Below are positions 2,046 through 2,111 of a DNA stretch of 13,902 nt, in pieces. Both the position numbers and the translations under genes were made by a program. How positions within the stretch are numbered: position 1 is the first letter of the stretch; every line of letters starts with the position of its first letter. The stretch lies in IMG/VR virus record IMGVR_UViG_3300029376_000363, one strand, 5' to 3'. Source of the stretch: a virus. Its lineage: Duplodnaviria; Heunggongvirae; Uroviricota; Caudoviricetes. The notes below the pieces were generated by a model. The model searched no databases and had not been told where the DNA came from. It worked only from the letters and a program-made list of their open reading frames with translations.

Positions 2046-2111
2046 AATCGTAATCCTCCAAAATTTCATGTAAAATTGGCAGAGCCGAAGCCCTGCCATA
2101 TATCGTGTTTC

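What the first reader, a model, noticed from the sequence alone, without database searches (positions are those of the whole stretch)
2046..2111. Abrupt change of codon usage across a 66-bp intergenic spacer
Genes to the left on the minus strand (chaperone, tape-measure fragment) strongly prefer AAG/GAG/ATC/CTG codons. Genes from 2112 rightward use mid-GC enterobacterial-like codons with frequent AAA/GAA/TTA, and encode a P4-type integrase and AlpA-like regulator. Yet the spacing would suit one operon. This is either a recent recombination junction, a mobile element inserted into foreign phage DNA, or a chimeric assembly.
Basis: seen in the sequence. Interest (0 to 1): 0.4.

Follow-up and report, generated by a model that had tools for sequence, protein, structure and literature searches.

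The report
Chimeric contig joined at shared 23-mer
The apparent codon-usage switch is an assembly artefact: a gut Clostridia prophage fragment and an E. coli chromosomal island were stitched together at a 23-base sequence they share by chance, about 250 bases right of the flagged spacer.

Summary
There is a real discontinuity near the flagged site, but it is not at the 66-bp spacer. Window 1-2382 matches a very common gut Clostridia siphophage tail module. One IMG/VR contig is 100% identical, and 29 independent loci all stop matching at exactly base 2382. Window 2360-13902 matches an E. coli P4-like island next to yicC, at 99.0% identity over 100% of 2383-13902. E. coli identity starts at exactly base 2360.

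The two parents overlap only in the 23-mer TATCTGCGTTCTGCTGTGCAATG (2360-2382). It encodes IAQQNAD in the same frame in both. The join therefore creates an intact but false 275-aa ORF (2112-2939): a P22 gp20-like N-terminus fused to a Band_7/SPFH C-terminus.

The spacer 2046-2111 is a native, conserved intergenic region of the Clostridial phage, with a terminator-like hairpin and a ribosome-binding site.

Junction-specific 33- and 48-mers are absent from the IMG/VR and JGI metagenome contigs; the 48-mer is also absent from the GTDB genomes. No E. coli genome matches 1-2359. A 10-N gap that breaks a reading frame shows the sequence is a short-read scaffold.

Verdict: a chimeric contig, not biology. 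Interest is low.

The parts
1..111 (-). N-terminal 37 codons of the Clostridial phage tape-measure protein, cut by the window end
   Evidence: Tape-measure PHROGs phrog_5755, phrog_58 and phrog_28. A 1947-1969 aa tape-measure gene sits at this position in relatives.
266..1288 (+). Opposite-strand cargo cassette of the Clostridial prophage: DUF3791 (266-487), DUF3990 (484-1065) and an 80-aa ORF (1046-1288)
   Evidence: Pfam DUF3791 at 1e-12 and DUF3990 at 7e-29. The same cassette, or alternative cassettes, occupy this position in relatives.
1504..2045 (-). Pair of overlapping small genes in the tail-assembly-chaperone position: a 126-aa gene (1665-2045) and a 54-aa gene (1504-1668)
   Evidence: phrog_709 at 1e-39 and phrog_3033 at 7e-24. 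The 126-aa protein is 98-100% identical in isolates of Clostridium fessum, Blautia and Faecalibacterium. The chaperone role is inferred from position between the major tail protein and the tape-measure protein.
2046..2111 (-). The flagged 66-bp spacer, a native intergenic region of the Clostridial phage. It holds a terminator-like hairpin (2098..2077) and a GGAGGA ribosome-binding site (2059..2054) 8 nt before the ATG at 2045.
   Evidence: Hairpin found by the scan. The spacer is 92% conserved across 10 independent relatives with the same 66-nt spacing.
2112..2359 (-). Stop codon plus the last 82 codons of the Clostridial phage Band_7/SPFH gene, forming the C-terminal third of the false ORF
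   Evidence: 100% identical to L004, where it belongs to a 275-aa Band_7 protein. phrog_200 at 1e-14. No E. coli match.
2360..2382 (.). Crossover: the 23-mer TATCTGCGTTCTGCTGTGCAATG, present in both parents
   Evidence: E. coli identity begins at 2360. All 29 Clostridial or phage loci end their match at 2382. Four-way alignment. It is the only shared k-mer of 20 bases or more between 206 kb of Clostridial loci and 44 kb of E. coli loci.
2383..2939 (-). First 186 codons of the E. coli P22 gp20-like DNA-ejection protein, truncated by the join; the native gene encodes 439 aa
   Evidence: Pfam Inj_translocase at 7e-22 over residues 33-190. 99% identical to E. coli 'phage DNA ejection protein' genes.
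2939..4071 (-). E. coli island genes: P22 gp7-like ejection protein (2939-3616) and DUF2824, matching a PHROG annotated 'head morphogenesis' (3610-4071)
   Evidence: Pfam P22_gp7 at 5e-73 and DUF2824 at 4e-62; phrog_651 at 2.6e-67 for 3610-4071. E. coli annotation.
4834..7593 (-). P4-alpha-type primase (zinc ribbon, Toprim, DUF927) of the E. coli island
   Evidence: Pfam hits. E. coli annotation.
10989..10998 (.). Run of 10 N, a scaffold gap inside the antA/AntB antirepressor gene
   Evidence: N10 plus CTC stands where E. coli has 15 nt, so the length is 2 nt short and the reading frame is broken.
12064..12267 (-). AlpA-like helix-turn-helix regulator of the E. coli island
   Evidence: Pfam Phage_AlpA at 2e-8.
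13321..13902 (-). C-terminal 193 aa of the island's tyrosine integrase, cut by the window end. In E. coli it lies next to yicC.
   Evidence: Pfam Phage_integrase at 8e-15. E. coli context.

Best explanation
The window is a computational chimera, an inter-genome misassembly in a short-read metagenome scaffold, most likely from a gut sample. Bases 1-2382 come from a very abundant prophage of gut Clostridia. Bases 2360-13902 come from an E. coli chromosomal P4-like island. Both parents happen to contain the same 23-base string (2360-2382), which is longer than the smallest k-mers usual in de Bruijn assemblers. I infer that the assembly graph or the scaffolder walked from one genome into the other through that shared node.

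The 23-mer encodes IAQQNAD in the same frame in both genes, and at the same distance (residue 187) from both start codons. The join therefore produces an uninterrupted 275-aa ORF that looks like a normal gene. This hid the junction and made the next intergenic gap (2046-2111) look like the boundary. That gap is simply the phage's own Band_7-to-chaperone spacer.

Shown: two parents, an exact breakpoint, a shared 23-mer, no recurrence of the junction, and a scaffold gap. Inferred: that the join was made in silico, and by which step.
For: (1) Window 1-2382 is 100% identical to IMG/VR contig L004 and 99.7% identical to L006 and L009. Altogether 29 independent phage, MAG or isolate loci match up to exactly 2382 and then continue with their own Band_7 gene.

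(2) Window 2383-13902 is 99.0% identical over 100% of its length, in one piece, to the E. coli CV839-06 and ETEC1747 chromosomes. In all 72 E. coli genomes that match this allele, identity starts at exactly 2360.

(3) No part of 1-2359 matches any of 5,426 complete E. coli genomes. No Clostridial locus matches 2383 onward.

(4) The overlap is one exact 23-mer, the only shared k-mer of 20 bases or more between the held parental loci. The two proteins have no other significant similarity.

(5) The junction-specific 48-mer is absent from IMG/VR, JGI metagenome contigs and 185,579 GTDB genomes, and the 33-mer is absent from IMG/VR and JGI metagenome contigs. The fused protein is not on record among 153 billion gene positions. 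The phage parent, by contrast, is indexed in 15,094 blocks.

(6) Both genes are cut in mid-domain. Inj_translocase covers residues 33-190 only, and the Band_7 tail matches phrog_200 positions 274-350.

(7) A 10-N gap that mis-sizes the underlying sequence and breaks a reading frame shows this is a short-read scaffold.

(8) K-mers shared between genomes are a recognised cause of chimeric metagenome contigs (PMC7299287).
Against: No reads, coverage or assembler log are available, so the join has not been directly shown to lack read support. A 23-bp repeat suffices only at the smallest k (about 21). Modern multi-k assemblers usually resolve such nodes, so some additional circumstance is needed, such as low coverage of one parent, a scaffolding or merging step, or an older assembler. 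The equal offset of the shared peptide in both proteins (residue 187) is an unexplained coincidence, although it plays no part in the mechanism.
Confidence: 0.88

Rival explanations
1. In-vitro chimera: a physical hybrid molecule made during library preparation or amplification. Template switching in PCR or MDA at the 23-bp microhomology, or ligation of two fragments, would then have been assembled faithfully.
For: The junction lies at a microhomology shared by both templates, which is where template switching occurs. This is established knowledge of PCR and MDA chimeras, not tested here. Both parents are expected in the same gut sample: E. coli from human and pig sources, and the Clostridial prophage widespread in gut assemblies.
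Against: Such molecules are individually rare and would seldom reach the coverage needed to win an assembly path over both abundant parental continuations. A 23-nt exact overlap just above a typical minimum k points instead to a graph artefact. No read data are available to decide.
Confidence: 0.07
2. Genuine biological recombinant: illegitimate, microhomology-mediated recombination in vivo fused Clostridial prophage DNA to the E. coli island. This would be a cross-phylum transfer event.
For: Both DNAs coexist in the gut. A 23-bp identity could in principle support RecA-independent or short-homology recombination. The fusion is in frame.
Against: The junction is unique. It is absent from 5,426 E. 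coli genomes, from 29 Clostridial loci and from the three large collections. Both flanks are 99-100% identical to free-standing parents right up to the break, so there has been no subsequent evolution. The fusion destroys both genes. No att site, target duplication or transposase is present at the break. The left flank is a Gram-positive siphophage tail module with Clostridial codon usage. The sequence is a gapped scaffold.
Confidence: 0.02
3. One reading: a natural boundary at the 66-bp spacer 2046-2111, with foreign modules abutting there, such as a mobile element inserted next to phage DNA.
For: GC and codon usage do differ between 1504-2045 and the genes beyond about 2400.
Against: The spacer and both of its flanks (through 2382) are contiguous and conserved in 29 Clostridial loci. 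Codons 2115-2360 keep the left-hand usage. E. coli identity starts only at 2360.
Confidence: 0.01

Closest known systems
Inter-genome chimeric contigs in short-read (de Bruijn graph) metagenome assemblies
   Same: Two unrelated genomes are joined through a short exact k-mer that they share. Each flank is collinear with its own reference. The junction is unique to this one assembly. A scaffold gap lies elsewhere in the same sequence. The phenomenon is described in PMC7299287.
   Different: The parents belong to different phyla, not related strains or species as in the commonest case. The shared k-mer is a chance 23-mer, not a conserved gene or repeat. By coincidence the join is in frame and preserves the ORF length.
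Gut Clostridia HK97-type siphophage or prophage tail module (major tail protein, Band_7, chaperone pair, cargo cassette, tape measure)
   Same: Window 1-2382 is a 100% identical fragment of this module, including the flagged spacer.
   Different: Nothing differs up to base 2382. After that the window departs from every member.
E. coli P4-like integrative island next to yicC carrying P22-type gp14, gp7, gp20 and gp16 ejection-protein genes
   Same: Window 2360-13902 is 99% identical and collinear with it: integrase, AlpA, AntA/AntB, Ash, primase, DUF2824, gp7-like and gp20-like genes.
   Different: The gp20-like gene is cut after codon 193. The rest of the island (the remainder of gp20 and the lytic-transglycosylase/gp16-like gene) is replaced by Clostridial DNA. 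The antirepressor gene is interrupted by the N gap.

Membership tests
Chimeric (misassembled) metagenome contig | Each side of the breakpoint is collinear at high identity with a different, independently attested genome | tested here: met
   Left side 100% to L004 and 92-99.7% to further Clostridial loci. Right side 99.0% over 100% of its length to E. coli chromosomes.
Chimeric (misassembled) metagenome contig | A short exact repeat shared by both parents sits at the breakpoint, with length at or above the assembler's minimum k | tested here: met
   23-mer at 2360-2382 is present in both parents. Parental identity ends and begins exactly at its two edges.
Chimeric (misassembled) metagenome contig | The junction is not reproduced in independent assemblies or genomes | tested here: met
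   The 48-mer is absent from IMG/VR, JGI metagenome contigs and GTDB genomes, and the 33-mer from IMG/VR and JGI metagenome contigs. The fused ORF is not on record. There are 0 of 5,426 E. coli genomes with the left flank.
Chimeric (misassembled) metagenome contig | No concordant read pairs or long reads span the junction, and coverage steps at the junction | not testable with these tools
   Reads and coverage for the source assembly are not available.
Natural mobile-element insertion or site-specific integration boundary | The boundary carries att or target-site duplications or terminal repeats, and lies at an element end next to its recombinase | tested here: not met
   The break lies in mid-gene in both parents. 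The integrase is at the opposite end (13321-13902) and in E. coli abuts yicC. The only shared sequence is the 23-mer inside coding sequence.
Natural mobile-element insertion or site-specific integration boundary | The same junction recurs in related genomes | tested here: not met
Native intergenic spacer of the Clostridial phage late operon (for 2046-2111 itself) | Same spacer, same flanking genes and same spacing in independent relatives | tested here: met
   In 8 of the 10 loci the Band_7 stop to chaperone ATG distance is 66 nt; in L091 and L099 it is 69-70 nt. Mean column identity is 92%, and the hairpin and the GGAGG motif are conserved.
P22 gp20-type ejection protein (for ORF 2112-2939) | Full-length family architecture (about 440-470 aa; Inj_translocase N-domain plus family C-terminal half) | tested here: not met
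   Only residues 1-193 are gp20-like. Residues 194-275 are the Band_7 C-terminus (phrog_200). The native E. coli protein is 439 aa.

The most novel reading that the evidence does not exclude
The join is a real molecule: a Clostridial prophage tail-module fragment recombined in vivo into an E. coli P4-like island through a 23-bp microhomology. This would capture a cross-phylum phage-DNA transfer event almost immediately after it happened.
Probability: 0.02. Interest if true: 0.6.

Novelty: not a real feature. Interest (0 to 1): 0.06.

Why it matters
The main value is as a quality-control lesson. A chimeric join can be invisible to ORF-based inspection when the shared k-mer is in frame. Here it even reproduces the native ORF length of 275 aa. 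Composition-based boundary calls can then be displaced to the nearest intergenic gap.

Three downstream inferences from this contig would be wrong: that an E. coli satellite carries a siphophage tail module, that a Clostridial phage carries a P4 integrase, or that a new 'gp20-SPFH fusion protein' exists. The contig should be split at 2360-2382 before any use.

Tried and rejected
1. Codon-usage likelihood change-point within ORF 2112-2939. It gave only a rough break at about 2313, with a weak signal. The Clostridial plus-strand cassette scores 'E. coli-like', so composition alone cannot place the junction. I relied on homology instead.

2. DNA search of the junction region against GenBank phages. 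It returned only two marginal 30-nt hits. One lay in a prohibitin gene, which gave the SPFH lead, but nothing was usable directly.

3. Looking for the source contig or a second occurrence of the junction: the exact 48-mer in three collections, the 33-mer in IMG/VR and the JGI metagenome contigs, and an exact-protein lookup of the fused ORF. All were negative, so the source assembly could not be identified.

4. Testing whether Band_7 and the gp20-like protein are homologous, which could make the crossover a homologous exchange. BLASTP finds only the 14-residue stretch around SIAQQNAD (E=0.05). Rejected.

5. Considered that the N-run might be a length-preserving mask. It is not: N10 plus 3 nt stands where E. 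coli has 15 nt, and the reading frame shifts.

6. Considered a natural insertion at the spacer. Rejected because the spacer and its flanks are contiguous in 29 Clostridial loci.

Full report
**Observation**

The window has 43-57% GC with no sharp step at 2046-2111. The two minus-strand genes left of the spacer (1504-1668, 1665-2045) have GC3 of 0.73 and CTG for 17 of 23 Leu codons. Genes from about 2400 rightward have GC3 of about 0.445 and CTG for 8 of 56 Leu codons.

The 82 codons immediately right of the spacer (2115-2360) keep the left-hand signature: GC3 0.61, AAG 7/9, CTG 5/5. They differ significantly from the E. coli-like part (p=0.006 for GC3; p=2e-4 for CTG) and not from the left genes. 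The change is therefore real, but it does not occur across the spacer.

**Where the break is**

Megablast of 1300-5000 against 5,426 complete E. coli genomes gives 99% matches, and the best of them all begin at window base 2360. A sensitive search of 2000-2420 gives 72 genomes, all again starting at 2360. A pairwise alignment shows identity switching on at exactly that base. Nothing in 1-2359 matches any E. coli genome.

A 37-mer spanning 2343-2379 occurs in nine IMG/VR contigs. BLAST shows these match the window from the left and all stop at 2382. L004 is 100% identical over 1-2382, and L006 and L009 are 99.7% identical.

After I fetched relatives from GTDB genomes and other assemblies, 29 non-E. 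coli loci ended their match at exactly 2382. None matches anything to the right. The four-way alignment shows the window following the phage up to 2382 and E. coli from 2360 onward. The two parents coincide only in TATCTGCGTTCTGCTGTGCAATG (2360-2382).

**What the two parents are**

*Left parent.* It is an extremely common prophage of gut Clostridia. The 126-aa protein is indexed in 15,094 blocks of the assembly collection. It is 98-100% identical in isolates of Clostridium fessum, Blautia spp. and Faecalibacterium intestinale.

The native gene order is:
- portal
- ClpP protease
- HK97 capsid
- connectors
- major tail protein
- Band_7/SPFH (275 aa)
- a 66-nt spacer
- a 126-aa chaperone-position gene
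- a 54-aa gene
- a variable cargo cassette
- a tape-measure gene of about 1969 aa

The window holds the stretch from the tape-measure start (1-111) to the last 89 codons of Band_7.

The flagged spacer is this phage's own intergenic region. It is 92% conserved across ten relatives. It contains a terminator-like hairpin (2098..2077, minus strand) and a GGAGGA motif 8 nt before the ATG at 2045.

*Right parent.* It is an E. coli chromosomal island next to yicC. It carries a tyrosine integrase, AlpA, AntA/AntB, Ash, a Toprim-DUF927 primase, and P22-type gp14 (DUF2824), gp7, gp20 and gp16-like genes. Window 2383-13902 is 99.0% identical over its full length to strains CV839-06 and ETEC1747.

**The false ORF**

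ORF 2112-2939 (275 aa) is a fusion. Residues 1-193 are the N-terminus of the 439-aa gp20-like ejection protein (Pfam Inj_translocase covers residues 33-190). Residues 194-275 are the Band_7 C-terminus (phrog_200).

The 23-mer encodes IAQQNAD in the same frame in both parents. In both proteins this peptide begins at residue 187. The fusion therefore has exactly the length of the genuine Band_7 protein, 275 aa. BLASTP finds no other significant similarity between the two proteins, so I treat this as coincidence.

It explains why the sequence looks like an ordinary gene followed by an ordinary spacer, and why a reader working without tools placed the boundary at the next intergenic gap.

**Artefact or biology**

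The evidence points to an artefact:
- The junction-specific 48-mer is absent from IMG/VR, JGI metagenome contigs and 185,579 GTDB genomes. The 33-mer is absent from IMG/VR and the JGI metagenome contigs.
- The fused protein is not on record.
- Both parental continuations are abundantly attested.
- Both flanks are 99-100% identical to free-standing parents up to the break.
- Both genes are destroyed by the join.
- There is no att site or target duplication at the break, and the integrase lies at the far end.
- The window contains a 10-N scaffold gap (10989-10998) that mis-sizes the underlying E. coli sequence by 2 nt and breaks the antirepressor reading frame. The sequence is therefore a short-read scaffold.

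A shared exact 23-mer is just long enough to connect two genomes at k of about 21. Shared k-mers are a recognised route to chimeric metagenome contigs (PMC7299287).

As a rough estimate of my own: 4^23 is about 7e13. About 1e7 E. coli positions against about 1e9 unique metagenome bases gives on the order of 100 chance-shared 23-mers. Such nodes are therefore expected in a gut metagenome. In the held data, this is the only shared k-mer of 20 bases or more between 206 kb of Clostridial loci and 44 kb of E. coli loci.

**Conclusion**

The finding is a chimeric contig. The true join is at 2360-2382, not at 2046-2111. I cannot distinguish an in-silico join (favoured) from a rare in-vitro hybrid molecule without the reads. 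A genuine in-vivo recombinant remains formally possible but very unlikely, at about 2%. The contig should be split at the 23-mer, and the two halves treated as fragments of a known Clostridial prophage and a known E. coli island.

Noticed in passing
window 10989-10998: A run of 10 N lies inside the antA/AntB antirepressor gene (ORF 10922-11620). N10 plus 'CTC' stands where E. coli has 15 nt (TAGCAGTTAGCCCAC), so the length is 2 nt short and the reading frame is broken. This is a scaffold gap, not a length-preserving mask.
   Followed up: yes
window 2360-2382; L004 10421-11248; L101 2238-3557: The shared peptide SIAQQNAD starts at residue 186 in both the Clostridial Band_7 protein (275 aa) and the E. 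coli gp20-like protein (439 aa), and IAQQNAD starts at residue 187 in both. The chimeric ORF therefore has exactly the native Band_7 length. No other significant similarity exists between the proteins (BLASTP E=0.05), so this looks like coincidence.
   Followed up: partly
window 170-1500 (266-1288 +); L091-L100 about 6550-8100: The slot between the chaperone pair and the tape-measure gene of this Clostridial prophage is a variable cargo hotspot. In the window it holds DUF3791, DUF3990 and an 80-aa ORF on the opposite strand. In relatives it holds PhD/ParE toxin-antitoxin genes, Abi_2, or HTH plus DUF6036. These are probably defence or addiction cargo.
   Followed up: partly
L004 10421-11248; L091-L100 about 5100-5934 (window 2112-2382 is its tail): A Band_7/SPFH gene with an N-terminal hydrophobic, lipoprotein-like leader (MKKIFPLFAVIIVLVLAVC) sits between the major tail protein gene and the chaperone-like gene of this prophage. 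It is followed by its own terminator-like hairpin. This is an unusual cargo position inside a tail operon.
   Followed up: no
L011-L021 (genome-contig hits to window 1665-2045): The 126-aa chaperone-position protein is 98-100% identical, and the DNA 92-96% identical, in isolates from different Clostridia families: Clostridium fessum, Blautia spp., Faecalibacterium intestinale and Lawsonibacter. It also appears in bins labelled Bacteroidaceae and Bacteroides uniformis, which are probably mis-binned. This suggests a very widely shared tail module, or a phage with a broad host range.
   Followed up: no
window 4696-4810: An iteron-like array lies just downstream of the primase gene stop at 4834. 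It has three copies of GTTGGTTCA (4698, 4719, 4730) facing three tandem inverted copies TGAACCAAC at 9-nt spacing (4782, 4791, 4800), separated by an AT-rich stretch. It is plausibly the island's P4-type replication origin.
   Followed up: partly
window 2383-4071 and L001 8544-13712: The E. coli island combines a P4-like integrase, AlpA and primase with P22-type gp14, gp7, gp20 and gp16-like (lytic transglycosylase) ejection-protein genes, and no other virion genes are seen nearby. At least 80% of the window's E. coli part is present in 229 of 5,426 complete genomes.
   Followed up: no
window 1405-1430 (+): A strong terminator-like hairpin (11-bp stem, then TTTTTTAT) closes the plus-strand DUF3791/DUF3990 cassette. 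It faces the end of the minus-strand 54-aa gene.
   Followed up: no
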